From a phage, in sequence record NC_135728.1: a stretch of 64,000 bases of DNA. One strand, written 5' to 3'. The number at the start of each line of letters is the position of its first letter. The stretch's first letter is position 1. The notes beneath the pieces were generated by a model that had not been told where the DNA came from, made no database searches, and worked only from the letters and a program-made list of their open reading frames with translations. Below are positions 1-17,365 of the stretch, one piece after another. The translations under genes were made by a program, and so were the position numbers.

Positions 1-534
1 AACCTTGACGAGTGTAACGTTTGGCAACCCAAAAGGAAACTTGTTAGGGTCAAACTTGAAACTGGCACGTAGCCAACTGATCCCTCTACCTATCATGTCG
101 GGTGACCATGATGGGCAGTGTGTACCCATGAAAGGATCAGATGTTTTTCTGTCGTTATGTAGCTCCCACGATACCAGATCTCCATACGAGGAAATAGGAT
201 TACCGTCGATGAGTATGTCTTCTATACCTTCCAGAGGATGATTAGCAAGAACAATGGCACAATGGAGGGTTCTGTCTCTGTCCTGCTCCAAAAACGCAAG
301 CAGCCCAGACGTGCGTGTCTTCCCATACACTACAGAGCAGGGTGCAGCAGAAGATCTGAGAAGCTTTTGTCTATCTTGCTGACTTCTGTAAGATTTGTTG
401 CCCTCAAAAATCTTATCCAGAGTTCTGGTGGTAACAGTGTTCAGGCTGTCAGCCAGAGCTGCCTTGGATGCGTTCCAGTCATAACTTGAAGATCTTGCAG
501 AAGCAACGATGTTATCAATCATTGCAATTGGCAT
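1..534 (-). CDS. hypothetical structural protein, N-terminal ~177 codons only (gene runs off window start); possible tail-tip/host-specificity-like protein
   Basis: Minus-strand frame open from ATG at 534-532 to position 1; ATG overlaps the stop of the upstream gene (TAATG coupling); absent from the ORF track because no stop lies in the window. Confidence 0.45.
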   Translation of the reverse strand, partial: MPIAMIDNIVASARSSSYDWNASKAALADSLNTVTTRTLDKIFEGNKSYRSQQDRQKLLRSSAAPCSVVYGKTRTSGLLAFLEQDRDRTLHCAIVLANHPLEGIEDILIDGNPISSYGDLVSWELHNDRKTSDPFMGTHCPSWSPDMIGRGISWLRASFKFDPNKFPFGLPNVTLVKV

Positions 535-971
535 TAATACCTCCAGACATCAACAACGATAGAATCTTTCATGTCGAACATAAAGACCCCTTTATCACCT
601 TTCGCCCAAATCTGGTTGTTCCAGAACACACCAGCGGTGAGCCCGTTCAGACCTTCGAAAATGACAATATCTCCACGCTGAACCTGTTTAGGAGTATCCA
701 GCCGAGTCATAAAGAGATCAAAAATAGTAGGCAGGTGTGTGGTTTTGAAACGGAGCATGCACCATCTTTTGCTTTCCAACTCTGTTTTATACGTTCCTTC
801 GAAGTTAGAAAGAAAATCTGTTCCGTACTGGGCATCAACACACTTAGCTGCAAAGGTGCAACAATCGTGGAATCCCCATTCAAAAGGTATGGTGGCCTCT
901 TCGTCAAACACTTTCCACAATCTTTCTTGCCAATCCACTAAACGAGGGTGTGTGCTCATTAAACCTCCCAA
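534..971 (-). CDS. hypothetical protein (145 aa), possible cysteine-peptidase-like tail-associated protein
   Basis: ORF track; tight overlaps with neighbours indicate an operon; HDCC and GDIVIF motifs loosely resemble the NlpC/P60 fold. Confidence 0.45.
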   Translation of the reverse strand: MGGLMSTHPRLVDWQERLWKVFDEEATIPFEWGFHDCCTFAAKCVDAQYGTDFLSNFEGTYKTELESKRWCMLRFKTTHLPTIFDLFMTRLDTPKQVQRGDIVIFEGLNGLTAGVFWNNQIWAKGDKGVFMFDMKDSIVVDVWRY

Positions 972-1525
972 ATGATCGGGCGGCTCGCCACCTGATCCAC
1001 ATATTTAAAAAATCTGTCATTATCGTTTCTTGAGCTGTGGCTTTCCTCCGTGTACCTATAAGGAAAACCTCTTAACCAACTGTTGAAGATGGAAGAGATG
1101 GATATGGACAAAGCACTATTCTCACCTGTCTGAATAGCCATATCTGTTATAAGGCCGTCAAACAAGCCATTAGTTGTAACAGGCAGACCATTCTCCATAG
1201 CGGTAATGTACAACGTGGCACGACAACCAGAATACTCCGTCTTCAGCAGATCACCAACATACTTAGGATCAAACCCGTTCAATGTTGCTACCACAGATCC
1301 GAAGTTGGTGGCATCTTTCTCAGACACAGCAGTTAATGTTGCTGATCCACCTATCCCTATAAAATGTTGCCCCTCAATTACTACAACACCAGTGCCTGAG
1401 CACACCCTGACAGTTCCTGTCGGTAGCTCCAGCTTTGCAGCAATTAAGATCTCAACACCATCAAGCTCCAGCTTTTCAAGAAATAAATTATCTAATGGCG
1501 CTCTGATCATCTTAGAAATCCTCAA
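959..1525 (-). CDS. hypothetical protein (188 aa), tail-module associated
   Basis: ORF track; 13-nt overlap with downstream gene, same strand as tail genes. Confidence 0.45.
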   Translation of the reverse strand: MRISKMIRAPLDNLFLEKLELDGVEILIAAKLELPTGTVRVCSGTGVVVIEGQHFIGIGGSATLTAVSEKDATNFGSVVATLNGFDPKYVGDLLKTEYSGCRATLYITAMENGLPVTTNGLFDGLITDMAIQTGENSALSISISSIFNSWLRGFPYRYTEESHSSRNDNDRFFKYVDQVASRPIIWEV

Positions 1526-2102
1526 AGAAGTTGATAACTATATTATCACCTTTTTGCATAGCATCGACTTTTTGCTTAATTTTATAAATATCTCTGATAT
1601 GAAACCTACCCTTTGGGGATTGAGTTATTATCTTCATAGTATCCCCTGCGGCAATAGGTTTCCTAAGTCTTGGAGATATGCTTATAACAGCAGCCCCAAC
1701 ACCATCGCTGCGTACTGGAGCTGTTACTACTTTCAACTCATCGTTCACAGATATTTTATCACCAGCTCTGGCTATGTCTCTGTTTGGCTCCCACCCGACC
1801 GTCTTCAAAAAATCGTCGTTACCAGTAGGCCCAAGAGCGATTGGCTCATTAGCTGTTACCGAGTGACCGTAAGTTTTAATGAGAAATATGTTCCCATCTT
1901 TATATACCTGATCAACAAAGCTCTTAAGCTCTAACAACTGTGACTCGCTGATATTGGAAACCGTCAAAGTGCCTTTCCAGTTAGGTGTGGCATAGGTTAC
2001 TTTTTGCGTTTTACCTGTAAACGGACTTTTAAACGTAACAATATCTGCTAGCAGCTCCAATCTAATATCTGGAAGGTATCTAGGCCTTTCCCATAAAAAC
2101 AT
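1512..2102 (-). CDS. hypothetical protein (196 aa), tail-module associated
   Basis: ORF track; operon arrangement. Confidence 0.45.
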   Translation of the reverse strand: MFLWERPRYLPDIRLELLADIVTFKSPFTGKTQKVTYATPNWKGTLTVSNISESQLLELKSFVDQVYKDGNIFLIKTYGHSVTANEPIALGPTGNDDFLKTVGWEPNRDIARAGDKISVNDELKVVTAPVRSDGVGAAVISISPRLRKPIAAGDTMKIITQSPKGRFHIRDIYKIKQKVDAMQKGDNIVINFFEDF

Positions 2103-2164
2103 TGTGCCTCCAGGTTAAACAATCATGATAGTTATTTTACCAGATTTTAAGTTAATACGCAATA

Positions 2165-2194
2165 TAAACAAAAAGCCCCCGCCGAAGCGAGGGC
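2165..2194 (-). terminator. rho-independent terminator (GC hairpin with UUCG loop followed by U-run on minus strand)
   Basis: Plus-strand aaaaa-gcccccgccgaagcgagggc; on the minus strand a GC stem with TTCG tetraloop then T-run, just after the stop of the 2200-2532 gene. Confidence 0.6.
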
Positions 2195-2199
2195 AATAC

Positions 2200-2532
2200 T
2201 TAAAATACTTCCAAGGTAGACGCTGGAGGGTCGAACATGTTCAATTTCATCGACTCTACAACTTTTCCGCTTTTTGAGATAATGTTTTCTGCACCTTCGT
2301 CCAGAGTTAAAACATTAACATAAAACAATTCGCTTTTCTCACAAACAGGATAGACAACCATGTTGCCAAACTCATCTTCTGCCTCATAGGTATCTCCCGT
2401 CTCTGTGTAAACAAAGCCAGCAACCTCTACAAGAAGTGTGTTTTGCAACACCTCATTTTCGTAAAAGCCGATTTCATCCATGAAACCGTTGAAGTCCTCC
2501 CTGTCAGTGAACCCGAGGGTAAAGGTATTCAT
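2200..2532 (-). CDS. hypothetical protein (110 aa), possibly fibre assembly/tail accessory
   Basis: ORF track; start-stop overlap with upstream fibre gene at 2532. Confidence 0.45.
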   Translation of the reverse strand: MNTFTLGFTDREDFNGFMDEIGFYENEVLQNTLLVEVAGFVYTETGDTYEAEDEFGNMVVYPVCEKSELFYVNVLTLDEGAENIISKSGKVVESMKLNMFDPPASTLEVF

Positions 2533-5500
2533 TATTCAACACTCTCCATCATAAGTTGGGTATCTGTCAGCGCAGAGTTCCAAACTCTTATGTCCTTAAT
2601 ATGACCAAACAAATGTCTTTCTCCTGTTGCCGTTTGACCACCGATACGGATGAAAGCTCCTCCTGCCAGGAACTCCCAAGAAGACTGTGTTTCAGTGCTC
2701 ACCAGTCCGTTAGCAAAAGAGCAAGTTTTACCGTCTTCTTTTATCCTGAACCCCATCTTCAGTTTACGCGCTTTAGCCATCTCGTAGACACGTCTGTTTG
2801 ACCCTCCAATATCGCAGTATGGATACCCATCCTCTGCAATATTTGTTGCAGAACCAAACCCGAGAATAAAAGCTGCGCTCGTCTGGTGTCCTTCTGTGTC
2901 TATAACCCTAGGGGCTGCGTTAGGAGCTTTGCCCCAACCTCTCCAGTTAGCATCCACAGTAGCGGCGATAGTGAACGGTCTAGGTGCTAAGTTATCCGTC
3001 ATCGGGAATTTGCAAAGGTCTGCCGCTCTAGTTACAGGTGAAGATCCTGTGGGAATAAACGAGGACTCGCAAGAACCTAACTCAAATTGAGGTATTGCAA
3101 CATCAACCCAATCCCCTACAACATGCTGAGCACCTTCAGGTGGAGAAATCTGGAACTGGCACCCGATATTCTTGTCAGAGGCCACTGCCTCAAACGTAGC
3201 GGCAATCCTTACCCAAGCAGGTCCGGCTGTTTGCCATCTCTCAGCTTTTACTTTAATTCTCCCAGCTGCACCACCTGTTGTTTTAACTTCAAGTGTTGAC
3301 AGGTTAACATAAGCGTCACCTTGGAATACTGTGGTGGATCCGTCATACATGTCGAATCTTACACGTAATCTCTGGTTCGCTTTACCTCCCCTTGCAATAA
3401 TAGACCCAGTACAGAATTTCTCAGCACCTGTCACATCGGCACCTCTGGTGGCTGGAACTGTAGCAAGGTTTAACGCTGTTGTTTCCACACCGGATGCAGT
3501 GTTTACTGTAAATCTTGCACCTTTTGTGCCGTTGGTGTTTGTTACAGTACCACCAACAGTAATCTGTTGACTGGCTCCCCATTTACTAGGGTCTTCACTG
3601 TTAAGCATTAGGTTTGTCCTTTGCCCTTCAATAAGCAGACCATCTCTTTCAAACCGAGGATGATCGTTCTGAGCAGTAACCATCACACCGCGTTTAGAAA
3701 AGTATGTTGCTGTAGAAGGTCTGGAGAATACCATCTCTCCCTCACCAAGTGCAGGTTTTAAGTTGGAGGTCAAAGGTAACCAAAGATCAGGCATAACTGG
3801 GGCGGTTGTGCTTTCCGGGAAGCTTGTTCTCTTCCAAGGACTCCAAGCCATTCCACTACCAGTGTTATTATAATACCTTTCCCATGTTCCACCAAGGTAC
3901 ATCTTGTAGATCTGAATACAGCCCGTGCCCTCGTTAGCAGAGTTTCTAAGCACAATCAGCGTACCAGCCATCTGCTGTCCAGGCGGGTAATGTCTTTCAG
4001 CTGTAGCGTTAGCATTCGCCTCTTGATGGTAGATACCTTCACGATCTGCTTTATAATCGTTAAGGTCGCTATTCCCCAGTCCTTGACCACGGTGCTGAAT
4101 AACCTTGTTCCACGCTCTGTGATTTCCCTGCTCTATGGAACGGGTATATAGCTGATCTAATCGACCTGCTATCTGGAAAGCATAGTTCCCAGAGAATGCC
4201 ACAGACAACCCGCCAACAACCATCGAACCTTCAGGCCCGTTAACATTACCAGCCATTATTTTAGAAGGGTTGTTATTCCCGAACTGGTTGTTCCAGTCTG
4301 CACCTGTGTGGCATACAAAACCACCAGGAGCTGAGAAAGTGCCATCTTTGTTGAAGTTGTAGAATCTATGGGATGAACCAACAACATCTCTAACAATGAC
4401 CTGACCAGCCTCTGGGGTAGACCTGAACTCTGCCTGACCTTTGAGACCAGCACCATTACCGCATTTAGAGGTAAATGTACCGTTAGTTAAGTCCTCTGTC
4501 CCATCTGATGCACACTGGAATCCTGCATTAGAGAATAAAGCCTTTCTAGGGCTGCCGTAGCACAAATAGTCAAGACCGTCTGCCCATAGCTCGACTTTTG
4601 GCATATTCATTTTGCTCATCACAGCATAGCGTTCAGCAGTGCCTATATAGTGCCACTGTGTACCGCCGCCAGTGTAGAATCCAGAGGTACCTTTGAAGTC
4701 AACAATAGGTCTGGTGTTGGTATTGTTATCTCCAAGAACAGCAAGATTCAAATCTGCCGACTGGAGAGGTGCAACAAACTTAACCCCGTCCTGATTGTTT
4801 GTTACAGAACCAACCTGGTAGTCTTGTTCTTTGGTAAACACCTCTAAAACATTTCTACTTGCGTATATGCTGACAGGGAAAGCACGCGCCTCTGCATAGA
4901 AAGCAACATATTCTTGTTTACCCCTTGTTGGAGCAACCATCCCAAGAATTGCTTTTTCATTCTGGTAGAAATTTACTACTCCGTAGAAAGAGTCCCCTCT
5001 ATCTGTCCACCCACCAGTTCTATAATGACACTGTAAGGTAGCACAGTTCATGGGGTCACCACCAGATGACGACCTAGTAACTATGGTAATATCGGTGCCA
5101 GTAGCTGGAGCATAATACGGATCTGTTCTAACTATAATTGGGTAGTATTTCCCATCTTCCATCCCTGCGGTTCTTGGCAGCGTTAAGAAATCTTTTACGC
5201 CTGCAGCTATAGGAACTCTAAACAGATTCTGAGCCTCTGCCAAAGTTGTAGCCCCAGTACCACCTGCGGCTTGCGGTAAAGGTTCCCACTTGGCCTTCCG
5301 GTTGTTATAAACACCCCATTCCAGAGTGCCGTTACCGGATTCATCCATCCCGCCATCCCAGATGACCATCTTGGCGGCTTTCTTGGATCCCCAGAAGCCT
5401 CTTTCTGCTCCTGAACTACGGATCCACTCTCCGAGTCCCCAGTTTGTCAGCTGACCAGTAAGATCCCCAACCTGCATGTATTTAGGGCAGTCTAGCACGC

Positions 5501-6971
5501 CGTCTTCTCGGAAACCTAAATATCTATGGGTTTCAGATCCTTTTGCACCTTTGTGCAGGTGGATTGTCAACCAAGCCTTATTGTCGTTTCTTACCTCAGA
5601 ATAGATCCTATAACCATGCTCAAGAACACCATCAGTATTATATTTATCTCCATGGAGAATACCTGAGGCAGATTTAACATCTCCAGAGTATTGAGCTAAG
5701 TAAAGGTGCCCGAAGGCTGGTGAGTTGTTTTTACCAAGGCCGATATGAGATCTGAAGGTATCATCGTTACGAGGTCTGACCATCGGCTGCCATGCAGTCC
5801 ACTGATTTGTGTTGGCCTGATAGGTTCTCAAATACCAAACATCTACGTTAGAGAATGGATAGTATTCCTGACGACAACCTGCACCGCCGTTAGCATTGTT
5901 CTGCCAAACAATCAGGTGACCAGCACCAGAACCTGCTGGGTAACCATTTGCCTCGGTGGCATTGGCAGTCATGGGCTGGTAGTATACACCATCCTGATTG
6001 CCAGTCAAATTGTTAATATTGAAATTTGCCTCAAGGGCTGCACGTTGTTTATAAAAAGTTCCTAAATTAATACGTGCACCTGCGGCATCTCTGGCACCTG
6101 TACCACCTTGCTCTATAGCAAGAGGTTGCCATGAAGATGTCTGTTGGTTCCACATGCCCCAACGACCTGTTGCATCAAGCTGCAAGTACCCGGCTGTGTT
6201 TACATCATCACCAGCACGAATAACGGTTCTTGTTGGGTTGTTTGCCTCTAGGCGTTTAAATTCATCACGAAGTGCTATTCTTTTTGTTGTTGCTACACCG
6301 TTGGTTACTGCAATGGTGTACATAGCTCCGGAGGTAGCGCCACGGAAAATACCATCAACAGTTGTAGTATCACGACGAGATACCACACCGTTCAGGAATT
6401 TTTCACCAGCTGCTACGGAAGGGTAGTTAGTAGTTCTTCCCTCTTCAATAACTGCAGGGCCAACAAAATTGACAAGGTGAATAACATCGCCTACAGTGTG
6501 CACGGTACCAAAATCTACCCGCTGTGCAAGTGCTTTAGCATCGTTGGCGGTCTTAACTGTAACATCCATTACATCCTGGACAGACTGACCTTCAGCTGTC
6601 ATAATCATGGATGCGCCAATAGTTGATTCCAGCTCCTCTCTTAATGATGGATCTGTATATACCATCCATGCAGCATCAGTAATCCCACCATCGGAGTACG
6701 GTGAAGATAGTGCAGGAACGGTGTGCGGAAATTCGCCTTTCCAACGCAGGTAGAGGTCTTCCTCTTCGAAGTAGGCAAAATCCATTGGGCCGTTTAACTT
6801 ACCACCTTCCTTAAAGGAGATTACATGAGAAACAGTCCCATCCACATGGACAACATCGCCAATTTTTACACGACGAGTCAGGTCTGGTTGTTGAACAACC
6901 AGGTAATCATCCTCTGTCACTGCGGTAGTGGCAGGAAGAGATTCAATTCTGACAACTTTAATATCAGCCAT
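2532..6971 (-). CDS. long tail fibre protein (1479 aa)
   Basis: Very large ORF in tail module; internal duplicated segments (NNANGGAGCRQEYY / NSANEGTGCIQIYK); C-terminal lectin-like region; N-terminal motif shared with the 9606-10274 protein. Confidence 0.75.
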   Translation of the reverse strand: MADIKVVRIESLPATTAVTEDDYLVVQQPDLTRRVKIGDVVHVDGTVSHVISFKEGGKLNGPMDFAYFEEEDLYLRWKGEFPHTVPALSSPYSDGGITDAAWMVYTDPSLREELESTIGASMIMTAEGQSVQDVMDVTVKTANDAKALAQRVDFGTVHTVGDVIHLVNFVGPAVIEEGRTTNYPSVAAGEKFLNGVVSRRDTTTVDGIFRGATSGAMYTIAVTNGVATTKRIALRDEFKRLEANNPTRTVIRAGDDVNTAGYLQLDATGRWGMWNQQTSSWQPLAIEQGGTGARDAAGARINLGTFYKQRAALEANFNINNLTGNQDGVYYQPMTANATEANGYPAGSGAGHLIVWQNNANGGAGCRQEYYPFSNVDVWYLRTYQANTNQWTAWQPMVRPRNDDTFRSHIGLGKNNSPAFGHLYLAQYSGDVKSASGILHGDKYNTDGVLEHGYRIYSEVRNDNKAWLTIHLHKGAKGSETHRYLGFREDGVLDCPKYMQVGDLTGQLTNWGLGEWIRSSGAERGFWGSKKAAKMVIWDGGMDESGNGTLEWGVYNNRKAKWEPLPQAAGGTGATTLAEAQNLFRVPIAAGVKDFLTLPRTAGMEDGKYYPIIVRTDPYYAPATGTDITIVTRSSSGGDPMNCATLQCHYRTGGWTDRGDSFYGVVNFYQNEKAILGMVAPTRGKQEYVAFYAEARAFPVSIYASRNVLEVFTKEQDYQVGSVTNNQDGVKFVAPLQSADLNLAVLGDNNTNTRPIVDFKGTSGFYTGGGTQWHYIGTAERYAVMSKMNMPKVELWADGLDYLCYGSPRKALFSNAGFQCASDGTEDLTNGTFTSKCGNGAGLKGQAEFRSTPEAGQVIVRDVVGSSHRFYNFNKDGTFSAPGGFVCHTGADWNNQFGNNNPSKIMAGNVNGPEGSMVVGGLSVAFSGNYAFQIAGRLDQLYTRSIEQGNHRAWNKVIQHRGQGLGNSDLNDYKADREGIYHQEANANATAERHYPPGQQMAGTLIVLRNSANEGTGCIQIYKMYLGGTWERYYNNTGSGMAWSPWKRTSFPESTTAPVMPDLWLPLTSNLKPALGEGEMVFSRPSTATYFSKRGVMVTAQNDHPRFERDGLLIEGQRTNLMLNSEDPSKWGASQQITVGGTVTNTNGTKGARFTVNTASGVETTALNLATVPATRGADVTGAEKFCTGSIIARGGKANQRLRVRFDMYDGSTTVFQGDAYVNLSTLEVKTTGGAAGRIKVKAERWQTAGPAWVRIAATFEAVASDKNIGCQFQISPPEGAQHVVGDWVDVAIPQFELGSCESSFIPTGSSPVTRAADLCKFPMTDNLAPRPFTIAATVDANWRGWGKAPNAAPRVIDTEGHQTSAAFILGFGSATNIAEDGYPYCDIGGSNRRVYEMAKARKLKMGFRIKEDGKTCSFANGLVSTETQSSWEFLAGGAFIRIGGQTATGERHLFGHIKDIRVWNSALTDTQLMMESVE

Positions 6972-7006
6972 TCTTTCTCCTGAAAGGGGGCAAACAGCCC
7001 CCTATG

Positions 7007-9604
7007 TTAAAGGTACAATCCACGGTATTGAGCATAAAGGCCCAGACCGCGAAGGATTTCGCCAGAGTGATAGCCAACCGGATCAGAAACTGCCCAGCAG
7101 CCGTTTAAAACATTATCCCCATTAATGAAGTGGTGCTTTTGCAGTAGCTTCACACAGGCCTCTACAACAATATCTATTTGGGGTATTGTCTCTGAATACC
7201 CGCACAGACCTAGCCAGCAGCAACCTGCAAGCCATTCACCTACCACCCACATCCTGTCGCCTCTATCTTGATAAGAATATCCCCCAGAGGTGTTAAAGTC
7301 TGTAGGTAGGTTTCCTGAATGAGATGACTGGAATCTGTTGAGAAACCATGCCCATTTCTGGCAGAACAGGAATAATCTTTCATCAACAGGTTCTTTATGT
7401 TTCTTGAGCTCATAGATTGTGCGGCACGCAGCAACAAAAGATCTTGACTGGAGTTTAGAGTTATCTACCATCTCCCACCAACCAGTCAACCCTTCATTAC
7501 CTCTTTGCCATACATAACGTGAGGCAACTGGACCCTCTGTCTTAAATGTATTATTATACCAGACTTGAGCGTCATACAGAAAGCCTATTGTATTTGACAA
7601 TCTATGGCGATCTATGTTTTCTGCACCCATGCAGTATACTGCTGGGTATTGCATGCCAGGGTAGGGCCAATTTGGCTTTTCCTCTAAGAGATAGTTTTCC
7701 TTATCTATCACCTTTCCGGCAGGGAACACACCTGGTGTGTGCCTGTATGCACCTTGCTTGTAGTTTCTGACATAGCAATCACCAACCTTAGCGGTTGATT
7801 CTGTCTTGCTTGCCATCCATACGCTAAACCATATTAGATAAGCATCCCTATCTGCAATATAGAACTGCGGCAGCGTGTTTACGCAGTACAGATCAAACAA
7901 GCCATTGCCTATCTGCCTGTCGCTTAGGCTGAAATCTACAGAGGTGAGTCCCTTAGGATTAGCAAAGAAAGGTTTAATCTCTTCTTCGGTGTGATGAGGT
8001 TGTGTCGGATCTAGTTTGAAATCTCCTAGAGTAAGAGTTTCTGTTATCCATTGTCCATTAGTGGCATATAGATCAGCATACCATAACCACCTATCTTTGT
8101 CAAGAAATTTGACCCTTACCATCTCATCATCTGATCGATAAGTTACTGAGTTTAAAGAAATCTCTCTCCCAAAATTGAAAGTTACTTTACCTCTTGCTAT
8201 ATTACAACGGGTGAAGTTGTCAGAGTGGTTGTAAATGTCGGTATCATACTGCATACTAACACTAGCGCCACCGCTTACGACAATGTTTTCCTCTTTAGGT
8301 AAGAGATACGGATTACCGTCTTTACCAACTACCTCTACGAAATCAGTAACCTTGGCAACTATTTCTGTTACCTCTGCCCCTCCAAAAGGAACCCCTATCC
8401 TGTACTGTTTTTTGTTATTGTTGCCATCATTAAGGATGAAATGTGGCTGGAACAGAACCCCTTCTCCTCCGAAATTCATAACAATTTCAGCATCTCTGCC
8501 TATTTTGTATGTAGTCCCTTTTTGAATTATTTCGCAAGGCTGGCGTGCGTTCATTCTAAAATTGATATACCCGTCACTGTCCCTGCTCATGGCAGGAACT
8601 GTTCCTGCAACAAGGCAAGTACCATCTGTAAACGGTGCCTTAATCAACGTGGTCTTCCTAAACAGTTTGTCGTAGGCGTTTATATCACTGAAATTAAGCA
8701 ATTTGTTGTAAGACTGTTTAAACGCGGTGTAATACTTTTCCTCACCTGTCAAGGTGTAGAGTTGATAACAAGCGTCACACCACATTTCTTCCCCGTCCAA
8801 CTCTGGGGCCTGATTATCTGCAACCACGTTTATAGGATTTACAATTACAGGGGATCCTGCAGGTATCACCGATCCGCCCTGCTCTTGAGGTAATCTTACA
8901 CAATAGGTCACCTTGTGGCTGCCTGTAACACCCTTATCTTGTAATTGGATTGTGCCGAACTCTACAGACGTATGACCACTGTCGGCTATGCTACCGTTAG
9001 CCCAATAGCGGTTACCATCCCATGCTATGTACCACTCAACCCCCCAACTTAATCCGGATGTTGTCCAATCTGGGTTAGCATCTGTGCCACCGTAAACATC
9101 GGAGTCTACAGTATCTCTTCCTAACACACCGTTATACGCTTGGAATGCCTTGTCAAGGTATTCCCCCCATGTCGGAGATCCAGCTGGGATTTTTCCTCTA
9201 CCGTTGGTAAAAGACACCACCACATCTTTAAACCCACCATGTGATGGAACCCCATCTGTGGATAGAGGGTAGTGGGACAATCTTTGCATTTTACTTTCTA
9301 CTGCATATGCACCCAGAAGATGACTATTGTAAGCTTCCCAAGCATCTTTTGCCCTATCCAGATAGAAATCGCTTTTCGATGCCCTGTATGCTTCAATGTA
9401 TCCCAGAATCAACACAGCTTGGGACTCATGCATTGCCCAATCATTATTTATCTTATTACCTGCCCACCCTGCAGCTATAAGACCATCAGGGTTTACTAAC
9501 TTATTTTGAGTATGGGTGTTGGTAATACCTGTGTTGTTATCGAGGCACTTCCTGTGCCCCTCAATCATCTGAAATACGTTATCAATGTTGTGTTGAATAC
9601 GCAT
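7007..9604 (-). CDS. tail fibre/tailspike-like protein (865 aa), possible carbohydrate-active domain
   Basis: Large ORF between baseplate and fibre genes; composition suggests a glycoside-hydrolase-like fold (weak, by eye). Confidence 0.4.
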   Translation of the reverse strand: MRIQHNIDNVFQMIEGHRKCLDNNTGITNTHTQNKLVNPDGLIAAGWAGNKINNDWAMHESQAVLILGYIEAYRASKSDFYLDRAKDAWEAYNSHLLGAYAVESKMQRLSHYPLSTDGVPSHGGFKDVVVSFTNGRGKIPAGSPTWGEYLDKAFQAYNGVLGRDTVDSDVYGGTDANPDWTTSGLSWGVEWYIAWDGNRYWANGSIADSGHTSVEFGTIQLQDKGVTGSHKVTYCVRLPQEQGGSVIPAGSPVIVNPINVVADNQAPELDGEEMWCDACYQLYTLTGEEKYYTAFKQSYNKLLNFSDINAYDKLFRKTTLIKAPFTDGTCLVAGTVPAMSRDSDGYINFRMNARQPCEIIQKGTTYKIGRDAEIVMNFGGEGVLFQPHFILNDGNNNKKQYRIGVPFGGAEVTEIVAKVTDFVEVVGKDGNPYLLPKEENIVVSGGASVSMQYDTDIYNHSDNFTRCNIARGKVTFNFGREISLNSVTYRSDDEMVRVKFLDKDRWLWYADLYATNGQWITETLTLGDFKLDPTQPHHTEEEIKPFFANPKGLTSVDFSLSDRQIGNGLFDLYCVNTLPQFYIADRDAYLIWFSVWMASKTESTAKVGDCYVRNYKQGAYRHTPGVFPAGKVIDKENYLLEEKPNWPYPGMQYPAVYCMGAENIDRHRLSNTIGFLYDAQVWYNNTFKTEGPVASRYVWQRGNEGLTGWWEMVDNSKLQSRSFVAACRTIYELKKHKEPVDERLFLFCQKWAWFLNRFQSSHSGNLPTDFNTSGGYSYQDRGDRMWVVGEWLAGCCWLGLCGYSETIPQIDIVVEACVKLLQKHHFINGDNVLNGCWAVSDPVGYHSGEILRGLGLYAQYRGLYL

Positions 9605-9605: not shown

Positions 9606-10274
9606 TTAGATAGCTCCTGCGATAATCAGTGCTCCGTACCAAGTTAACCCGTTGTCGTAGGTTTCCAACTTGAAAATGTCTGTTGCACCAGCTGTAAATG
9701 TTAGGATAGGATCTCTTCCGTAGGCCCATTTAACATTATCAGGCCAATAGACTTTGTTGCCGCCAGCGGTCTGAGTAATGCATACGGTTATAGTTCTCGC
9801 CACCCCTTCAAGACCTTCTGTTTGATTTTCAAAAGAGATTGTGGTATTTGAAGTTAGTCGAACTTTAAAGGTGTCTGCAACTTCAAGATCCATATCAAGC
9901 TGACCACCGATAGATCCGTAATCAACTATCCTGCCAGAAGAAGTTGCAGCAAGCTCACCAAAAACAGACCATGCTTTTGCAGACACACCCCCAGCACCCT
10001 CTACAGTGGAGTCTGGGAGGATTATTTTAGGATAATCCCCGTTCCACGTGTAGTAGCGCTTGGTCTCTGGATCATAGGCAAAGTCCTTCTTGCTCTTAAG
10101 ATAACCACCCTCTGTGAAATAGATTATTTTAGTAATGCTGAGATCGTTGACAACATCATCAATCTTAGCCTTTCTTGTCCCATCAGTCTGGTTGACAACC
10201 AAGAAGTCATCACTCAGGACTGTTTCTGCATCTTCAAGATCTGGAATTGGTATTGTAGGATAAGCTACAGCCAT
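9606..10274 (-). CDS. tail fibre-related protein (222 aa) sharing the N-terminal attachment motif of the long fibre
   Basis: N-terminus LSDDFLVVNQTDGTRKAKIDDVV parallels DDYLVVQQPDLTRRVKIGDVV of the 1479-aa protein. Confidence 0.5.
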   Translation of the reverse strand: MAVAYPTIPIPDLEDAETVLSDDFLVVNQTDGTRKAKIDDVVNDLSITKIIYFTEGGYLKSKKDFAYDPETKRYYTWNGDYPKIILPDSTVEGAGGVSAKAWSVFGELAATSSGRIVDYGSIGGQLDMDLEVADTFKVRLTSNTTISFENQTEGLEGVARTITVCITQTAGGNKVYWPDNVKWAYGRDPILTFTAGATDIFKLETYDNGLTWYGALIIAGAI

Positions 10275-14074: not shown

Positions 14075-16414
14075 TTACCAAAGATCTGTTGACATAAAGT
14101 TAATATCTTTGCTATTCTCCCACTCAAGTTTTGCATCAAGTATTTTGCTAAACTCACCTTCATCTATAGAAATGGTGATTTTACCATCGCTGATCTCCAA
14201 AGGTAACATTTCCATGGTTCTCAGTTGAGAGGCAAAACCAGGGCCACCAGGTAGCGGAAGGGTTCCACCAGGTAAAGTGTCTAGAGGATTAACAAACCCG
14301 TTGCCACCCGATACTATATCTTTGCGGATCATGTCACTAATAGTATCCAGCTGTTGATTTCTCTCACTGAAAGGGTTGAAACGATCATTAACCATAGCCC
14401 CAGCACTCAATAATGTCCCAAGTATCCCCAACTTACCTAACATACCGGTACCTTTGATGCCTGGTGCTTTTATTCCACCACCTTTTCCTGCTGCGCCACC
14501 TACAGAACCCCCTGTGGTGATGGCACCAGCGCCAGCAGCTCCAGCTGCACCTTTCAGGGTGCTAAGGAACTTAAAAGTTTTTACAAGCATGGATGCCATG
14601 ACAAACCCTTTTGTAAGAGCGTGCACTACCAGCATAATGGCAGCAGCATACCCTGCCCATTTGGCAGTGCTGAAGGTGTCATGCAGCTCTTCGGAATACT
14701 CCTTCGTCTTAGCTGTTATGAACCCCCATTTGATGCCCCACTCAAGGAAAAACAGGCGGATCTTAACTATAGTGTTGTTTAGCTCACCAACAACCCAGTT
14801 AAGGCCTCTAATAAATCCGCTAACAAAATCACCTGAGGCATCCCACACAAATTGCAGAGTCTCACCTGTGCGGATCAAGGTGTAGTAGAACTCTGTCAAT
14901 TCATCTGCCCAACGGGTGAACAGTTTCTGACGAGACAGTTCTATGAAGGTTTTCAGTCTGTTTTCTGCCAGTACGTTAGACTTCTGCATTCTTTCATAAC
15001 CAGCTGCAGATGCCTCGTTCATGTACTTAGCCACATACTTCATGATCTTAGCTGTTTTAACCTCACCTTTCTTCATCATATCCATGAACTGATCCATGGA
15101 GAGTTCAGAAAGACCAAAAGCCTCTTTGGTGGCCTTGATAAAAGGTTCGTATGCACCAGGTAATGCTTCAGCAAGTTGTTGCTTCAGTTCTTCGGACATT
15201 ACTTGTCCCTTGCCTAGCATCTGTTGGATTGCCATGATACCACGCTGGTATTTTACCTCATCGGCACCATAAGCAGCAGCATACTGGGAGTATGCAGAGA
15301 ACAGCTCATGAACCTCCTGATTTGTCATCTGGTTTTTGGCGTTTACCGCCATCTGGGCGTAACCTTGAAGACCAGATTTGAGATCAAAACCAAGACGCAT
15401 AGCCTCTTGCTGGACAAACGCAACCTCACTGTTGGCTTTGTTTGGATCTCCAGTAACAGCAGTAAGAGCAGCACTTGCACCCTCCATCATGTGACCGGAT
15501 CTGTTAACAGCAGTAAATCCAGAAAAAGCCGTATACGCAGCTGTTGCATTAATAACAGATCTACGTAAGTCTCTCATGGCATCGCCTAGTGTAAGCGTTT
15601 GGTTGGTGGCGCTTTTAAACCCAGACTGCAGCGCTGACAGGTGGGCGTTAAAGGTTGACTTCTTCATCTCCCCGCGAGCAAACCTGGACTCTAACTCTGA
15701 GTATCCTGGCAAGCTTCCACGGAATCCGGCCCCATACTTGGCAGAAAGTCTTATCGCGGAGTTGTAGAGGTGGGTTCTCCTTGCCTCACGATCCGACATA
15801 AGCTTATTATCCATACCAGCTTTACTGTCTCTTCTTAGCTGTCTATGATAACGATTCATAGCGGCTGTCTGAGCTTTCACAAGGTTAGGGTCGGAAGCCA
15901 CACCACCCATATTAGGGTTACCGGGGATATATTTGAAAGATTTGGCATTAGCCAAAACTCTTGCCTTAGGTGCCTTATAACCACCGTAAGACACTGGTGC
16001 AGATTTGGCAGCCTTTTTGGCCTCTTTAGCTTGCTGCTGGTAGAACTTACGCATCCTAGCCATTTCTGGATTTTTAGCGGTAAGATTACCTACAGCTTGT
16101 TTACGTCTCGCATTCTCCCTACGTTCTATTGCAGCCCTTACTGCAGCCTCTTTCTTGGCCTGTGCTACGCTCTCTCTGTGCAGTTTAGCATTTGCCTGAG
16201 ATTGCTGTCTGGCAACCCTCTGCATTGTCTGCTGGGTTTTAACAGCTACCGCCTGCCATCTACTCATGGGGTTGGCTGAGTTAAAATCCTCGCCCAGTTT
16301 CCTGAACTCCCTCCCAATACTGCGAATTTTCTCTACAGCTTTTTTGTAGGAGGAGTTCTCTATCTCAAAGCCAATCTTGTTGACTGTTGTGGCAACTATT
16401 TTGTTTGTAGCCAT
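14075..16414 (-). CDS. tail tape measure protein (779 aa)
   Basis: Long, Ala/Lys/Gln-rich helical protein with a Gly-rich hydrophobic C-terminal segment; follows tube and chaperone genes. Confidence 0.8.
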   Translation of the reverse strand: MATNKIVATTVNKIGFEIENSSYKKAVEKIRSIGREFRKLGEDFNSANPMSRWQAVAVKTQQTMQRVARQQSQANAKLHRESVAQAKKEAAVRAAIERRENARRKQAVGNLTAKNPEMARMRKFYQQQAKEAKKAAKSAPVSYGGYKAPKARVLANAKSFKYIPGNPNMGGVASDPNLVKAQTAAMNRYHRQLRRDSKAGMDNKLMSDREARRTHLYNSAIRLSAKYGAGFRGSLPGYSELESRFARGEMKKSTFNAHLSALQSGFKSATNQTLTLGDAMRDLRRSVINATAAYTAFSGFTAVNRSGHMMEGASAALTAVTGDPNKANSEVAFVQQEAMRLGFDLKSGLQGYAQMAVNAKNQMTNQEVHELFSAYSQYAAAYGADEVKYQRGIMAIQQMLGKGQVMSEELKQQLAEALPGAYEPFIKATKEAFGLSELSMDQFMDMMKKGEVKTAKIMKYVAKYMNEASAAGYERMQKSNVLAENRLKTFIELSRQKLFTRWADELTEFYYTLIRTGETLQFVWDASGDFVSGFIRGLNWVVGELNNTIVKIRLFFLEWGIKWGFITAKTKEYSEELHDTFSTAKWAGYAAAIMLVVHALTKGFVMASMLVKTFKFLSTLKGAAGAAGAGAITTGGSVGGAAGKGGGIKAPGIKGTGMLGKLGILGTLLSAGAMVNDRFNPFSERNQQLDTISDMIRKDIVSGGNGFVNPLDTLPGGTLPLPGGPGFASQLRTMEMLPLEISDGKITISIDEGEFSKILDAKLEWENSKDINFMSTDLW

Positions 16415-16427
16415 GGTTTCCTCATAA

Positions 16428-16464
16428 TAAAAAGGGCCAGATCCCAGAAAAGGAATCCGGCCCT
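16428..16464 (-). terminator. rho-independent terminator (imperfect GC hairpin plus U-run on minus strand)
   Basis: agggccagatcc...ggaatccggccct hairpin preceded on plus strand by an A-run. Confidence 0.5.
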
Positions 16465-16468
16465 TAGA

Positions 16469-16717: not shown

Positions 16718-16728
16718 AACAACCTTGC

Positions 16729-17202: not shown

Positions 17203-17313
17203 TTTATAGCATCCTTATTAGTCATGTTGTGCACCATATTTGTGTATTTTACCATGATTATGGTGCATTGTCAATTTAACCTTTCAAGCAATTCAAGAAC
17301 GTGTGTCAAAACC

Positions 17314-17348
17314 ATAAAAAGCAAAAAGCCCCACCCTAAGGTGAGGCT
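17314..17348 (-). terminator. rho-independent terminator after the tail tube gene
   Basis: gccccaccctaaggtgaggc hairpin followed on the minus strand by TTTTTGCTTTTT. Confidence 0.6.
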
Positions 17349-17365
17349 TATGCTAAAGTGTGCCC

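What the first reader, a model, noticed from the sequence alone, without database searches (positions are those of the whole stretch)
1..2532. Five-gene cluster of unknowns downstream of the tail fibres
Five tightly coupled genes (110, 196, 188, 145 aa and a partial one) follow the long fibre gene. Their sizes and the EG-I-x-DG-NPI-type motif in the partial protein (…HPLEGIEDILIDGNPIS…) are reminiscent of a non-contractile-tail tip set, which would be unexpected beside a sheath/tube/central-spike tail. Alternatively they are fibre-assembly or host-interaction accessory genes.
Basis: inference. Interest (0 to 1): 0.35.

Follow-up and report, generated by a model that had tools for sequence, protein, structure and literature searches.

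The report
Siphovirus tail-tip cassette inside a myovirus
Four of the five genes are a complete copy of the gene set that builds the tip of a non-contractile phage tail, here sitting as its own late operon in the baseplate region of a contractile-tailed rV5-like coliphage, where it most likely builds an extra receptor-binding fibre; the fifth gene belongs to the neighbouring fibre.

Summary
The window comes from an rV5-like coliphage (genus Vequintavirus), 99.5% identical to phage MiataMamis. All five ORFs exist on the minus strand, but they form two units.

- **Gene A (110 aa):** it travels with the exchangeable tip of the upstream 1479-aa fibre. A terminator and a late promoter follow it.
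- **Genes B-C-D-E:** these form a separate late operon. They match, gene for gene and in the same order, the genes that follow the tape-measure gene in siphoviruses (Seuratvirus gp15-18, at 33/40/45/54% identity).
  - B models as a T5 pb9-type distal tail protein (Dit).
  - C models as a lambda gpL / RcGTA g13-type hub attachment domain.
  - D is DUF6950, a divergent NlpC/P60-like domain that lacks the catalytic His.
  - E is the N-terminus of a 1279-aa lambda-J-like protein.

Four sister genera lack the cassette and carry tailspike genes in the same slot. The cassette is under purifying selection. E was detected, thinly, in rV5 virions. E has lost the hydrophobic N-terminal segment that its siphovirus homologues keep, and B is unusually divergent.

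My best reading is a captured tail-tip complex reused as an accessory fibre rather than as a DNA conduit. Where it attaches to the virion is unknown.

The parts
2200..2532 (-). Gene A (110 aa). A small accessory gene of the upstream fibre's exchangeable tip; not part of the tail-tip cassette.
   Evidence: Its ATG overlaps the fibre stop codon (TAATG). It matches phrog_1361 (unknown function, E 2e-25). It is 42% identical to the small ORF that immediately follows the side-tail-fibre gene of lambdoid phage mEp460, whose fibre is 40% identical to fibre residues 1052-1473. Homologues sit just downstream of side/lateral tail-fibre genes in lambdoid, T1-like and T5-like phages. Only about 34 rV5-like genomes carry this allele.
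2165..2194 (-). Intrinsic terminator ending the fibre + A transcription unit.
   Evidence: Stem of 8 pairs (7 G-C), GCCCTCGCTTCGGCGGGGGC followed by TTTTTGTTT. Identical to terminator t041 predicted for rV5, -19.8 kcal/mol (Table S4 of PMC3606486).
2119..2155 (-). Late promoter upstream of B (rV5 'P040'), with the core TGGTAAAATA at 2133-2142.
   Evidence: The 37-mer TTAACTTAAAATCTGGTAAAATAACTATCATGATTGT is listed as putative late promoter P040 in rV5 Table S4 and is present in the window. The exact core occurs three times in the window, each time upstream of late structural genes. With up to 1 mismatch there are 19 matches against 6.0 +/- 2.8 in shuffles.
1512..2102 (-). Gene B (196 aa): distal tail protein (Dit) of the T5 pb9 type.
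   Evidence: Matches phrog_1302 'distal tail protein', E 4e-50. It is 33% identical to Seuratvirus OddieOddie gp15, the gene right after that phage's tape-measure gene. The AF2 model has pLDDT 87. Foldseek matches the DT57C and T5 pb9 Dit over the full length, E 5e-9 to 1e-8, TM about 0.6. It deviates at 14 of 28 family-conserved positions, where its nearest siphovirus relatives deviate at 0-3.
959..1510 (-). Gene C (183 aa): hub 'attachment-domain' protein, the counterpart of lambda gpL, RcGTA g13 and the T5 pb3 N-terminus.
   Evidence: Matches phrog_2048 'tail protein', E 1.5e-67. It is 40% identical to OddieOddie gp16. The AF2 model has pLDDT 80. Foldseek matches T5/DT57C pb3, lambda gpL (8iyk_L), the T1 tip (9l9p_J), RcGTA g13 (6tba) and the JBD30 and E217 hubs, E 2e-6 to 3e-4. 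Ten of 57 family members weakly match PF09931, the hub N-terminal attachment domain. It is 100% identical in 117 rV5-like records; every other hit listed among the 60 rows sampled across the ranking is on a record of at most 83 kb.
534..959 (-). Gene D (141 aa): DUF6950, a divergent NlpC/P60-like protein and the positional counterpart of RcGTA g14 and the lambda gpK C-terminal domain.
   Evidence: Matches Pfam DUF6950 at E 2.5e-33, above the gathering score. It is 45% identical to OddieOddie gp17. Of 65 family members, 21 also match NLPC_P60, best E 3.7e-5. The family profile hits Spr/MepS in the PDB at E about 0.009, with the invariant D32-C33 aligned on the catalytic Cys motif and Thr107 at the position of the catalytic His.
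1..534 (-). Gene E, first 178 aa of a 1279-aa lambda-J-like tip / central-fibre protein. The rest lies upstream of the window.
   Evidence: The full-length sequence was read from MiataMamis (L001 5695-9534). Pfam Phage_Tail_Tip matches at 1.2e-38 and Ig_J_second at 1.4e-30, both above threshold. Lambda J in the PDB matches at 5e-28. It is 54% identical over residues 48-758 to Seuratvirus gp18. The window part aligns with the N-termini of five siphovirus J-like proteins but lacks their hydrophobic first 45 or so residues.
2532..6971 (-). Context: the 1479-aa mosaic fibre that precedes the cluster.
   Evidence: Residues 46-103 match Pfam Tail_spike_N. Residues 1-135 are 37% identical to the anchor of the Seunavirus SSE121 tailspike. 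Residues 139-966 are up to 35% identical to the Seuratvirus lateral tail fibre gp20. Residues 1052-1473 are 40% identical to a lambdoid side tail fibre.

Best explanation
The region holds two separate things.

(1) Gene A is the small companion gene of the exchangeable, Stf-like tip of the upstream 1479-aa fibre. It is probably needed to fold or assemble that tip.

(2) Genes B-C-D-E are a complete siphovirus tail-tip ('initiator complex') cassette of the RcGTA/Seuratvirus type. It consists of a Dit ring protein (B), a hub attachment protein (C), an NlpC/P60-like DUF6950 protein (D) and a J-like protein (E). E has hub domains, Ig domains, a long coiled coil, a tip fibre and a C-terminal head.

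An ancestor of the genus Vequintavirus captured this cassette into the variable fibre slot just upstream of the baseplate-wedge genes. It is expressed as its own late operon.

Proposed mechanism. Three E and three C subunits form a pseudo-sixfold closed cone capped by a B hexamer, as in lambda, T5 and RcGTA. D acts as an assembly factor or cargo. The coiled-coil fibre of E projects from the cone and binds a host surface component. This adds one more adsorption device to the multi-fibre baseplate. The complex no longer serves as the DNA exit.

What is shown:
- homology, gene order and folds;
- a separate transcription unit;
- restriction to one genus among the relatives examined;
- purifying selection;
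- loss of the N-terminal hydrophobic segment of E;
- unusual divergence of B.

What is inferred:
- that B, C and E assemble as they do in siphoviruses;
- that the complex is mounted on the virion periphery;
- that it acts as a receptor-binding fibre.

Not known: the docking partner on the baseplate and the receptor.
For: Identity of the phage. The 8-kb stretch is 99.5% identical to Escherichia phage MiataMamis and 93-95% identical to rV5-like phages. The same genome carries sheath, tube, tape measure, hub, HxH spike and wedge genes.

Synteny. The order tape measure, then a gene of about 195 aa, about 190 aa and about 135-145 aa, then a J-like gene, is found in Seuratvirus OddieOddie, Salmonella FSL SP-016, Yersinia P840, Roseobacter CRP-821 and Vibrio 489E54-1. 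Pairwise identities to B, C, D and E are 33/40/45/54% for OddieOddie.

Folds. B matches the T5/DT57C Dit pb9 (E 5e-9, TM 0.6). C matches T5 pb3, lambda gpL, the T1 tip, RcGTA g13 and others.

Families. D is DUF6950 and NlpC/P60-like. E carries Phage_Tail_Tip and Ig_J_second and matches lambda J.

Own operon. Terminator t041 and late promoter P040 lie upstream of B. A terminator hairpin and promoter P036 follow E's stop codon in the 99.5%-identical relative.

Add-on, not core.
- The cassette is absent from the tail modules of Seunavirus SSE121, Mydovirus KB57 and Phapecoctavirus nieznany. These keep the same hub, spike and wedge backbone and carry tailspike or fibre genes in that slot.
- It is absent from the Septuagintavirus W70 gene and proteome list.
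- It is not among the phi92 baseplate components.

Functional genes. Against rV5_ev146, synonymous versus non-synonymous codon changes are B 19/2, C 9/0, D 8/0 and E residues 1-650 58/6. C is 100% identical in 117 records.

Virion presence. rV5 gp37 (the E orthologue) was detected by MS, including the tryptic peptide GYSETDFPSVFVPEWIEK.

Change of role.
- All 5 phage homologues have a hydrophobic N-terminal segment, and so do 47 of 61 IMG/VR homologues (56 of 61 at a laxer cut). Their best 19-residue Kyte-Doolittle score is 1.6-2.2. In E it is 0.31, with 9 charged residues in the first 45.
- In RcGTA the equivalent segment forms the channel-closing iris and the putative membrane-penetration helix (PMC7296036).
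- B, the subunit that contacts the tube and tape measure in siphoviruses, deviates at 14 of 28 conserved positions. Seuratvirus, P840, SP-016 and CRP-821 deviate at 0-3.

Allelic variation of E lies in the length and sequence of the coiled coil (residues 650-950, with an 80-aa indel). This fits a projecting stalk. It matches the 'variable lateral tail fibre gene' at alignment positions 16,000-19,000 in the BASEL study.
Against: - No structure places the complex on the virion. Cryo-EM of two rV5-like phages located only three of nine annotated fibres and did not report this one (PMC12143355).
- In siphoviruses a Dit ring needs a tube and a tape-measure C-terminus to dock on. No second tube or tape-measure-like sequence was found in the window, so how B would be used is unexplained.
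- B, C and D were not among the 19 proteins in the only rV5 proteome. That dataset is shallow: the tail tube gave 4 spectra and E gave 5.
- rV5-like phages need only the LPS outer core and the ECA/NGR glycan on K-12. No receptor is left obviously unassigned for E.
- The divergence measure for B depends on which homologues were sampled, and one Vibrio phage homologue is nearly as divergent.
- The AF2 models are monomers of moderate confidence (pLDDT 80 and 87).
Confidence: 0.6

Rival explanations
1. Central cap. The B6-C3-E3 cone sits on the tail axis under the baseplate, enclosing or abutting the gpV-like spike, so the myovirus has a lambda-like central fibre. Receptor binding by E would open or shed the cone and license sheath contraction.
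For: In every solved case this complex is coaxial with a tube-like sixfold surface (lambda, T5, T1 and RcGTA matches; PMC7296036). The myovirus hub and tube initiator share the same tube-like fold. A single copy per virion would fit the very low MS signal for E.
Against: The hub, spike and wedge genes are conserved in sister genera that lack the cassette. In phi92 the axis is fully occupied by hub, spike and tape-measure C-terminus. The distal face of a myovirus hub is bound by the spike OB domain, so no tube-like face is free. Loss of E's N-terminal plug segment is not required by this model. No central fibre has been reported in EM of rV5-like phages.
Confidence: 0.12
2. Only E is structural. 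B, C and D are retained as non-virion assembly factors that fold or trimerise E's N-terminal hub domain, and E attaches to the baseplate directly as an ordinary fibre.
For: Only gp37 (E) was seen in the rV5 virion proteome. Lambda gpK is annotated as a 'tail tip assembly protein', and deleting RcGTA g14 prevented formation of native particles. B has diverged strongly at family-conserved positions.
Against: Dit and gpL/g13-type proteins are stoichiometric structural parts in all solved tips. C is 100% conserved and B shows 19 synonymous versus 2 non-synonymous changes, as expected of tightly packed structural subunits. The proteome is too shallow to count absence as evidence.
Confidence: 0.15
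3. The cassette still works as a DNA- or protein-delivery tip, that is, a second and independent penetration device. It could be used on hosts where contraction-driven puncture fails, or it could deliver the D peptidase locally.
For: The gene set is complete, including the NlpC/P60-like D with its invariant Cys. RcGTA g14 is reported to degrade peptidoglycan and is thought to be ejected through the tip.
Against: There is no second tube, tape measure, terminator or chaperone set in the 64-kb window or its flank. E has lost the hydrophobic N-terminal segment. The whole D family lacks the canonical catalytic His.
Confidence: 0.05
4. Decaying relic or selfish passenger with no function in the phage.
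For: It is a horizontally acquired block that sister genera do without.
Against: All ORFs are intact and translationally coupled, with their own late promoter and terminators. Purifying selection is strong. The cassette is present and near-identical in more than 100 genomes. E was detected in virions.
Confidence: 0.03

Closest known systems
Tail-tip genes of Seuratvirus and other small siphoviruses (for example OddieOddie gp15-gp18, directly downstream of the tape-measure gene)
   Same: Same four genes in the same order, with similar sizes (194/194/144/1040 aa against 196/183/141/1279). Identities are 33/40/45/54%. The neighbouring lateral tail fibre gp20 is also related to the shaft of the window's 1479-aa fibre.
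   Different: Here there is no tape-measure, tube or chaperone gene upstream. The cassette sits between a baseplate fibre and the wedge genes of a myovirus. E lacks the hydrophobic N-terminus and has a longer coiled coil. B is much more divergent than the other three proteins.
RcGTA baseplate genes g12 (Dit), g13 (hub), g14 (peptidase), g15 (megatron); PDB 6TBA, PMC7296036
   Same: Same order and similar sizes: a T5 pb9-like Dit with an inserted domain, a hub protein whose attachment domain matches C (Foldseek E 2.9e-4), a peptidase-like protein of about 150 aa, and a multidomain protein of about 1300 aa.
   Different: C has only the attachment domain plus short helices. It has no four-Cys iron-sulphur domain and no OB or clip domains. 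E has lambda-J-type Ig and tip-fibre domains instead of the megatron's peripheral and fibre-binding domains. E has no iris/penetration-like hydrophobic N-terminus.
Phage lambda tail tip gpM-gpL-gpK-gpI-gpJ (PDB 8IYK and others)
   Same: E shares the Ig_J, Ig_J_second and Phage_Tail_Tip domains with J. The C model matches gpL (TM 0.54). The D family profile aligns weakly with the NlpC/P60-like part of gpK, and the smaller six-sequence alignment pairs its W-G-x-x-D-C motif with gpK's H-G-V-T-D-C. Gene order is analogous.
   Different: There is no gpI counterpart. B is a 196-aa pb9-type Dit, not the 109-aa gpM. Profile-to-sequence comparisons of B with gpM and of C with gpL are not significant. 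The NCBIfam lambda_TipJ score is far below its cutoff (152 against 1950 bits).
Phage T5 / DT57C tip: pb9 (Dit) and pb3 (baseplate hub protein)
   Same: These are the best structural matches for B (pb9) and for C (N-terminal domain of pb3).
   Different: In T5 both hub tube-like domains are in one 949-aa chain, and the central fibre and receptor-binding protein are separate proteins. Sequence identity is only 13-18%.
Multi-fibre baseplates of phi92 and other rV5 relatives (the 'Swiss army knife')
   Same: Same myovirus backbone of hub, spike, wedge and several fibre sets anchored by shared N-terminal domains. E is counted in the literature as one of the variable 'lateral tail fibre' genes.
   Different: The relatives examined fill this slot with ordinary tailspikes or fibres that carry the Tail_spike_N-type anchor. 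Only Vequintavirus fills it with a self-contained siphovirus tip cassette whose fibre protein has no such anchor.

Membership tests
Distal tail protein (Dit), T5 pb9 type | Tube-like ring domain plus inserted OB-like domain (fold) | tested here: met
   The AF2 model (pLDDT 87) aligns over its full length with DT57C/T5 pb9: E 5e-9 to 1e-8, TM 0.6, about 205 columns. It matches phrog_1302 at E 4e-50.
Distal tail protein (Dit), T5 pb9 type | Gene lies directly after the tape-measure gene; protein forms a hexamer between tail tube and hub | tested here: not met
   In the window B follows a fibre gene, gene A, a terminator and a promoter. The phage's tape-measure gene is 12 kb away and is followed by myovirus hub genes. 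The homologues in siphoviruses do follow the tape-measure gene. Oligomeric state could not be tested.
Hub N-terminal attachment domain (Pfam PF09931; RcGTA g13 / lambda gpL) | gp27-like or tube-like attachment-domain fold | tested here: met
   The C model (pLDDT 80) matches T5 pb3, lambda gpL, the T1 tip chain J, RcGTA g13, JBD30 and E217 hub proteins at E 2e-6 to 3e-4.
Hub N-terminal attachment domain (Pfam PF09931; RcGTA g13 / lambda gpL) | Sequence match to the Pfam model | tested here: inconclusive
   C itself has no hit at E <= 1. Ten of 57 aligned family members hit PF09931, with a best E of only 2.4e-4.
Hub N-terminal attachment domain (Pfam PF09931; RcGTA g13 / lambda gpL) | Four-cysteine iron-sulphur domain (present in RcGTA g13) | tested here: not met
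   C is only 183 aa and has two cysteines. Neither is among the invariant or nearly invariant columns of the family alignments.
NlpC/P60 peptidase-like tail protein (RcGTA g14 / lambda gpK C-terminal domain); Pfam DUF6950 | Pfam DUF6950 above the gathering score | tested here: met
   E 2.5e-33, 115.5 bits against a cutoff of 27. All 65 aligned relatives match.
NlpC/P60 peptidase-like tail protein (RcGTA g14 / lambda gpK C-terminal domain); Pfam DUF6950 | Catalytic Cys in the conserved D-C motif | tested here: met
   D32-C33 are invariant in 65 sequences. They align with the I-D-C-S-G-F motif of Spr/MepS and with H-G-V-T-D-C of lambda gpK.
NlpC/P60 peptidase-like tail protein (RcGTA g14 / lambda gpK C-terminal domain); Pfam DUF6950 | Catalytic His after the G-D-x-V/L-x-F strand | tested here: not met
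   Where Spr has G-R-H-V-G-I, D has G-L-T-A-G-V and the family consensus has e-t-l-G-v. No His is conserved anywhere in the family. Enzymatic activity could not be tested.
Lambda J-type tip attachment / central fibre protein | J-specific Ig domains and tip-fibre domain | tested here: met
   Ig_J_second at 1.4e-30 and Phage_Tail_Tip at 1.2e-38, both above cutoffs. PDB lambda J matches at 5e-28. This was tested on the full-length protein of the 99.5%-identical relative.
Lambda J-type tip attachment / central fibre protein | Equivalog-level match to lambda J (NCBIfam NF049904) | tested here: not met
   152 bits against a cutoff of 1950. It is a relative of J, not an orthologue.
GTA/Seuratvirus-type J-like proteins | Hydrophobic N-terminal segment (iris/penetration-like) | tested here: not met
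   The best 19-residue hydropathy is 0.31 in E. It is 1.6-2.1 in 5 of 5 phage homologues and at least 1.6 in 47 of 61 metagenomic homologues.
Siphovirus tail-tip operon | Order Dit, hub protein, DUF6950, J-like, translationally coupled | tested here: met
   Same order and coupling as in five siphoviruses.
Siphovirus tail-tip operon | Belongs to a non-contractile tail (tube, tape measure and chaperones of siphovirus type in the same genome) | tested here: not met
   The genome encodes a sheath, a myovirus tube, hub, spike and wedges. No siphovirus tape-measure-like ORF was found. No other siphovirus tail gene matched, apart from the fibre shaft.
Tail-fibre accessory / assembly protein (gene A) | Small gene immediately downstream of, and co-varying with, a fibre tip domain | tested here: met
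   TAATG coupling to the fibre gene. The homologous pair (fibre tip plus small ORF) is present in mEp460 and downstream of fibre genes in many siphoviruses. Chaperone activity could not be tested.

The most novel reading that the evidence does not exclude
rV5-like virions carry one or several complete, self-assembled siphovirus tail-tip complexes (Dit ring, hub cone and J fibre) mounted on a contractile-tail baseplate. This would be a 'tail tip used as a fibre': a whole DNA-delivery organelle of one tail type exapted as a sensory or adhesive appendage of another. The Dit ring would be re-tooled to dock on a trimeric baseplate fibre instead of a tail tube. In the stronger version, opening of the cone on receptor binding is the signal that triggers sheath contraction.
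Probability: 0.2. Interest if true: 0.75.

Novelty: new variant of a known kind. Interest (0 to 1): 0.5.

Why it matters
Tail tips of non-contractile phages and baseplates of contractile phages are usually treated as alternative solutions to the same problem. Here a complete tip cassette has been added to a complete baseplate and kept under strong selection in a whole genus of broad-host-range, therapy-relevant coliphages.

If the complex is mounted on the virion, three things follow.
- It shows that multi-protein tail modules, not only single fibre genes, can be swapped between tail types.
- It gives a natural experiment on which parts of a tip complex are needed for structure and which for DNA passage. 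The hub core is conserved, while the N-terminal hydrophobic segment is lost and the Dit is remodelled.
- It could help account for the annotated fibres that cryo-EM of rV5-like baseplates has not yet placed, and perhaps for an unassigned density seen there.

It also bears on annotation. 'Central tail fiber J' and 'distal tail protein' labels in a myovirus are not errors, but they should not be read as statements about position.

Tried and rejected
1. Tape-measure mimic. I searched all stop-to-stop ORFs of the window and of the 9.6-kb flank with five siphovirus tape-measure proteins, both full length and the last 200 aa. The aim was a docking partner for the Dit ring. There were no hits at E <= 1 (full length) or E <= 10 (C-terminal 200 aa).
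2. Paralogy. rV5 genes 54 and 55 have exactly the same lengths as C and D (183 and 141 aa). BLASTP shows no similarity (E > 2), so this is coincidence.
3. Profile-to-sequence comparison of the B family with lambda gpM and of the C family with lambda gpL was not significant. Only fold comparison links them.
4. Single-sequence searches of B, C and D against PDB sequences returned noise only. NCBIfam had nothing for A-D.
5. A single-sequence search of the large protein collection with B returned only near-identical proteins. Seeding with an alignment of siphovirus homologues was needed.
6. The sigma-70 consensus scan did not find a promoter before B. The phage's own late-promoter motif, from the rV5 paper, did.
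7. I tried to estimate E's copy number from the rV5 MS table. The dataset is too shallow: 5 spectra for E and 4 for the tube.
9. I looked for an explicit description of the four-gene cassette in the rV5, LL12, BASEL, RBPseg, phi92, Septuagintavirus and receptor-prediction papers. Only the J-like protein is discussed, as a tail fibre.

Full report
**What the window is.** The first 8 kb are 99.5% identical to Escherichia phage MiataMamis and 93-95% identical to about 120 rV5-like phages of the genus Vequintavirus. All genes in this part lie on the minus strand. The same genome encodes a sheath, tube, tape measure, baseplate hub, a gpV-like spike ending in an HxH motif, and wedge proteins, so it is a standard contractile tail. 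The window starts inside a gene. I read the rest of that gene from MiataMamis (locus L001) and rV5_ev146 (L002).

**Check of the observation.** The five ORFs are real.
- A: 2200..2532, 110 aa.
- B: 1512..2102, 196 aa.
- C: 959..1510, 183 aa from the ATG.
- D: 534..959, 141 aa from the ATG rather than 145.
- E: 1..534, the first 178 aa.

The quoted motif is at E residues 99-115.

B, C, D and E are coupled by TAATG overlaps or a 1-nt spacer. A is different. Its ATG overlaps the stop codon of the 1479-aa fibre gene. It is followed by a 97-bp gap holding a strong hairpin terminator (2194..2175) and the sequence TTAACTTAAAATCTGGTAAAATAACTATCATGATTGT. The rV5 genome paper lists both as terminator t041 and late promoter P040 (Table S4 of PMC3606486).

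The core TGGTAAAATA occurs exactly three times in the window, each time upstream of late structural genes. With up to one mismatch there are 19 matches against 6.0 +/- 2.8 expected. In the 99.5%-identical relative, E's stop codon is followed by another hairpin terminator and by promoter P036 in front of the wedge gene. So the 'five-gene cluster' is the tail end of the fibre operon (A) plus a self-contained four-gene late operon (B-E).

**Gene A.** It matches only a PHROG of unknown function. Its homologues, at 29-42% identity, are small ORFs directly downstream of side or lateral tail-fibre genes in lambdoid, T1-like and T5-like phages. Only about 34 rV5-like genomes carry this allele.

In lambdoid phage mEp460 the side tail fibre is 40% identical to residues 1052-1473 of the window's fibre. 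The next small ORF, again overlapping the fibre stop, is 42% identical to A. A therefore travels with an exchangeable fibre tip. I infer that it is a tip-specific accessory or assembly protein. This was not tested.

**Genes B-E are a siphovirus tail-tip set.**
- PHROGs call B 'distal tail protein' (4e-50), C 'tail protein' (1.5e-67) and E 'central tail fiber J' or 'tail fiber'. D is Pfam DUF6950 (2.5e-33).
- tblastn with the full 1279-aa E finds, outside the rV5 group, only J-like proteins among the records listed. The best is Seuratvirus OddieOddie at 53% over 76% of the length.
- In OddieOddie, the tape-measure gene is followed by gp15, gp16, gp17 and gp18 (194, 194, 144 and 1040 aa). These are 33, 40, 45 and 54% identical to B, C, D and E.
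- The same four-gene order after the tape-measure gene is found in Salmonella FSL SP-016, Yersinia P840, Roseobacter CRP-821 and Vibrio 489E54-1.

**Folds and families.**
- *B.* An AF2 model built on 48 homologues (pLDDT 87) matches the T5/DT57C distal tail protein pb9 over its full length (Foldseek E 5e-9, TM about 0.6). It also matches the Dit proteins of R4C, Chi and JBD30.
- *C.* A model built on 57 homologues (pLDDT 80) matches the N-terminal hub domain of T5/DT57C pb3, lambda gpL, the T1 tip, RcGTA hub protein g13, and the JBD30 and E217 hub proteins (E 2e-6 to 3e-4). Ten of the 57 members weakly hit PF09931, the hub N-terminal attachment domain. C lacks the four-Cys iron-sulphur domain of g13.
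- *D.* Its family has 2092 representatives at E <= 1e-3. All 65 aligned members are DUF6950, and 21 also hit NLPC_P60. The family profile finds Spr/MepS in the PDB at E about 0.009, with the invariant D32-C33 aligned on the catalytic Cys motif. The catalytic His position is Thr in D and is not His in the family consensus. A weak alignment to the NlpC/P60-like part of lambda gpK shows the same motifs.
- *E.* It carries Ig_J_second and Phage_Tail_Tip above Pfam thresholds and matches lambda J in the PDB at 5e-28. It is a relative of J, not an orthologue: NF049904 scores 152 bits against a cutoff of 1950.

In size and order the set is closest to RcGTA g12-g15: Dit, hub, peptidase and megatron (PMC7296036).

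**An addition to a complete myovirus baseplate.** The tail modules of four related genera keep the same backbone: tape measure, two small proteins, hub, spike, a protein of about 205 aa, anchor-domain proteins, a large 'tail protein', then wedge. These are Seunavirus SSE121, Mydovirus KB57, Phapecoctavirus nieznany and, from its published gene list, Septuagintavirus W70. None has B-E. The slot before the wedge gene holds tailspikes or fibres instead.

The phi92 cryo-EM study assigns hub, spike, wedge and three fibre sets without any J-like component. C is 100% identical in 117 phage records. The other 227 records that hold a relative are below 60% identical. Every one of these listed among the 60 rows sampled across the ranking is a genome of at most 83 kb, and the best is 40% identical. 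The 80 best IMG/VR relatives lie on contigs of 50 kb or less. Within the sampling limits, Vequintavirus is the only myovirus group with this cassette.

The neighbouring fibre is a mosaic.
- Residues 1-135 form a baseplate anchor (Tail_spike_N) shared with the 222-aa protein and with the SSE121 tailspike.
- Residues 139-966 form a shaft up to 35% identical to the Seuratvirus lateral tail fibre gp20.
- Residues 1052-1473 form the lambdoid Stf-like tip.

. Both the cassette and part of the adjacent fibre therefore have Seuratvirus-like relatives. This suggests capture of a larger siphovirus block, but that is an inference.

**Is it functional?** Against rV5_ev146, synonymous versus non-synonymous codon changes are 19/2 (B), 9/0 (C), 8/0 (D) and 58/6 (E residues 1-650). 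The rV5 virion proteome contains gp37, the E orthologue. It rests on 4 peptides and 5 spectra, one of them a good tryptic peptide. gp38-40 are not among the 19 proteins listed, but the dataset is shallow.

Differences between E alleles are concentrated in the coiled coil (residues 650-950, including an 80-aa indel). The hub part and the C-terminal 330 residues are nearly invariant. This matches one of the three 'variable lateral tail fibre genes' noted in the BASEL study.

**What has changed relative to siphovirus copies.** Two parts stand out.

1. All five phage homologues of E begin with an Ala/Gly/Val-rich hydrophobic segment (best 19-residue Kyte-Doolittle score 1.6-2.1). So do 47 of 61 metagenomic homologues next to C-family genes, or 56 of 61 at a cut of 1.26. 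The five lowest scores are artefacts of my start-codon trimming. E begins with a polar sequence: best score 0.31, with 9 charged residues in the first 45. In RcGTA the equivalent N-terminus of the megatron forms the iris that closes the channel and is proposed to insert into the outer membrane.

2. B is the subunit that touches the tube and tape measure in siphoviruses. It deviates at 14 of 28 positions that are at least 90% conserved in its family. Seuratvirus, P840, SP-016 and CRP-821 deviate at 3, 2, 0 and 0, although one Vibrio phage deviates at 11. C is not exceptional, and D deviates at none of 13.

So the core of the cone is conserved, while the parts tied to the tube and the channel have been remodelled.

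**Most likely mechanism (confidence about 0.6).** E3 and C3 form a closed pseudo-sixfold cone capped by a B6 ring, with D as assembly factor or cargo. The complex is mounted on the baseplate and presents E's coiled-coil fibre and C-terminal head as an additional adsorption device. It is not a DNA exit.

Homology, operon structure, genus restriction, selection and the two remodelled features are shown. The assembly, its position and its ligand are inferred. The docking partner is unknown. A search for a tape-measure-like plug in the phage's own proteins found nothing. Cryo-EM of two rV5-like phages placed only three of nine annotated fibres, and it noted an unassigned density on one fibre head.

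**Rivals.**
- A coaxial cap with a central fibre: 0.12.
- E alone structural, with B-D as assembly factors: 0.15.
- A still-active second delivery device: 0.05.
- A relic: 0.03.

**What is already known.** The rV5 paper annotated gp37 as a host-specificity tail fibre (COG4733) and gp38-40 as conserved hypotheticals with homologues in the siphovirus PY54. Pharokka/PHROG annotations in GenBank use the Dit and J labels. The RBPseg atlas remarked that a Vequintavirinae fibre has an N-terminal region 'common in central tail fibers'.

I found no paper in the searchable library that treats the four genes as a tail-tip cassette, notes its restriction to one genus, or asks where it sits. I rate it a new variant of a known kind. 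Every protein belongs to a known family, and the novelty lies in the context and the remodelling. Interest is moderate at 0.5. It is surprising for tail structural biology and directly testable with existing cryo-EM data, but it is partly anticipated by annotation.

**Caveats.**
- Residues of E beyond 178, and the downstream terminator and promoter, are read from a 99.5%-identical relative, not from the window.
- The AF2 models are monomers.
- Foldseek matches to hub and Dit folds show common ancestry of fold, not position in the particle.
- Distribution statements rest on sampled hit lists.

Noticed in passing
window 2532-6971 (-): The 1479-aa fibre is a three-part mosaic. Residues 1-135 form a Tail_spike_N-type anchor shared with the 222-aa protein (9606-10274) and with the Seunavirus tailspike. 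Residues 139-966 form a shaft related to the Seuratvirus lateral tail fibre gp20. Residues 1052-1473 form a lambdoid Stf-like tip. Against rV5_ev146 the last 80 residues are the most variable (73 of 79 identical, against 90-100 per 100 elsewhere).
   Followed up: partly
window 2133-2142, 17245-17254, 20767-20776 (all -): Exact copies of the rV5 late-promoter core TGGTAAAATA lie upstream of B, of the tail-chaperone/tape-measure block and of the tail-completion gene. With up to 1 mismatch there are 19 matches against 6 expected.
   Followed up: partly
L001 5695-9534 (upstream of window position 1): The two E alleles (1279 and 1199 aa) differ almost only in the coiled-coil stalk (residues 650-950, with an 80-aa indel). 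The stalk contains repeated T-N-K-A-T-x-D-L-L-N-type units. The receptor-side C-terminus is nearly invariant, which is unusual for a host-range determinant.
   Followed up: partly
phage collection hits to window 1-8000: Eighteen GenBank records named 'Campylobacter phage' (MG0656xx, host C. jejuni) are about 94% identical to this rV5-like coliphage region. They look like mis-assigned hosts or co-isolated coliphages.
   Followed up: no
L001 5571-5660 (-): MiataMamis annotation has a 29-aa ORF between E and the wedge gene. It overlaps promoter P036 and the start of the wedge gene, and other annotations omit it. It is probably not a gene.
   Followed up: no
window about 19296-20272 (-): Two tail genes (rV5 genes 54 and 55) have exactly the same lengths as C and D (183 and 141 aa) and the same overlapping junction, but they show no sequence similarity to them.
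   Followed up: yes
window about 29640-30460 (-) and about 34000: There is a cluster of five tRNA genes (Pro, Met, Thr, Tyr, Arg) in the annotation of the near-identical genome. GC skew changes sign near 34 kb, where transcription switches from the minus to the plus strand.
   Followed up: no
window about 34465-37250 (+): The early or middle region carries an RNA ligase, a Sir2-type NAD-dependent deacetylase and a nucleotide pyrophosphohydrolase in a row, according to the relative's annotation. This may be relevant to counter-defence.
   Followed up: no
protein collection hits P0005, P0010: B and C have relatives at 85-87% identity labelled 'Escherichia coli', on contigs of up to 137 kb for the B relative and 74 kb for the C relative. 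No phage record has C at 60-99% identity. This suggests a second, less-sampled Vequintavirus-like lineage that also carries the cassette.
   Followed up: no
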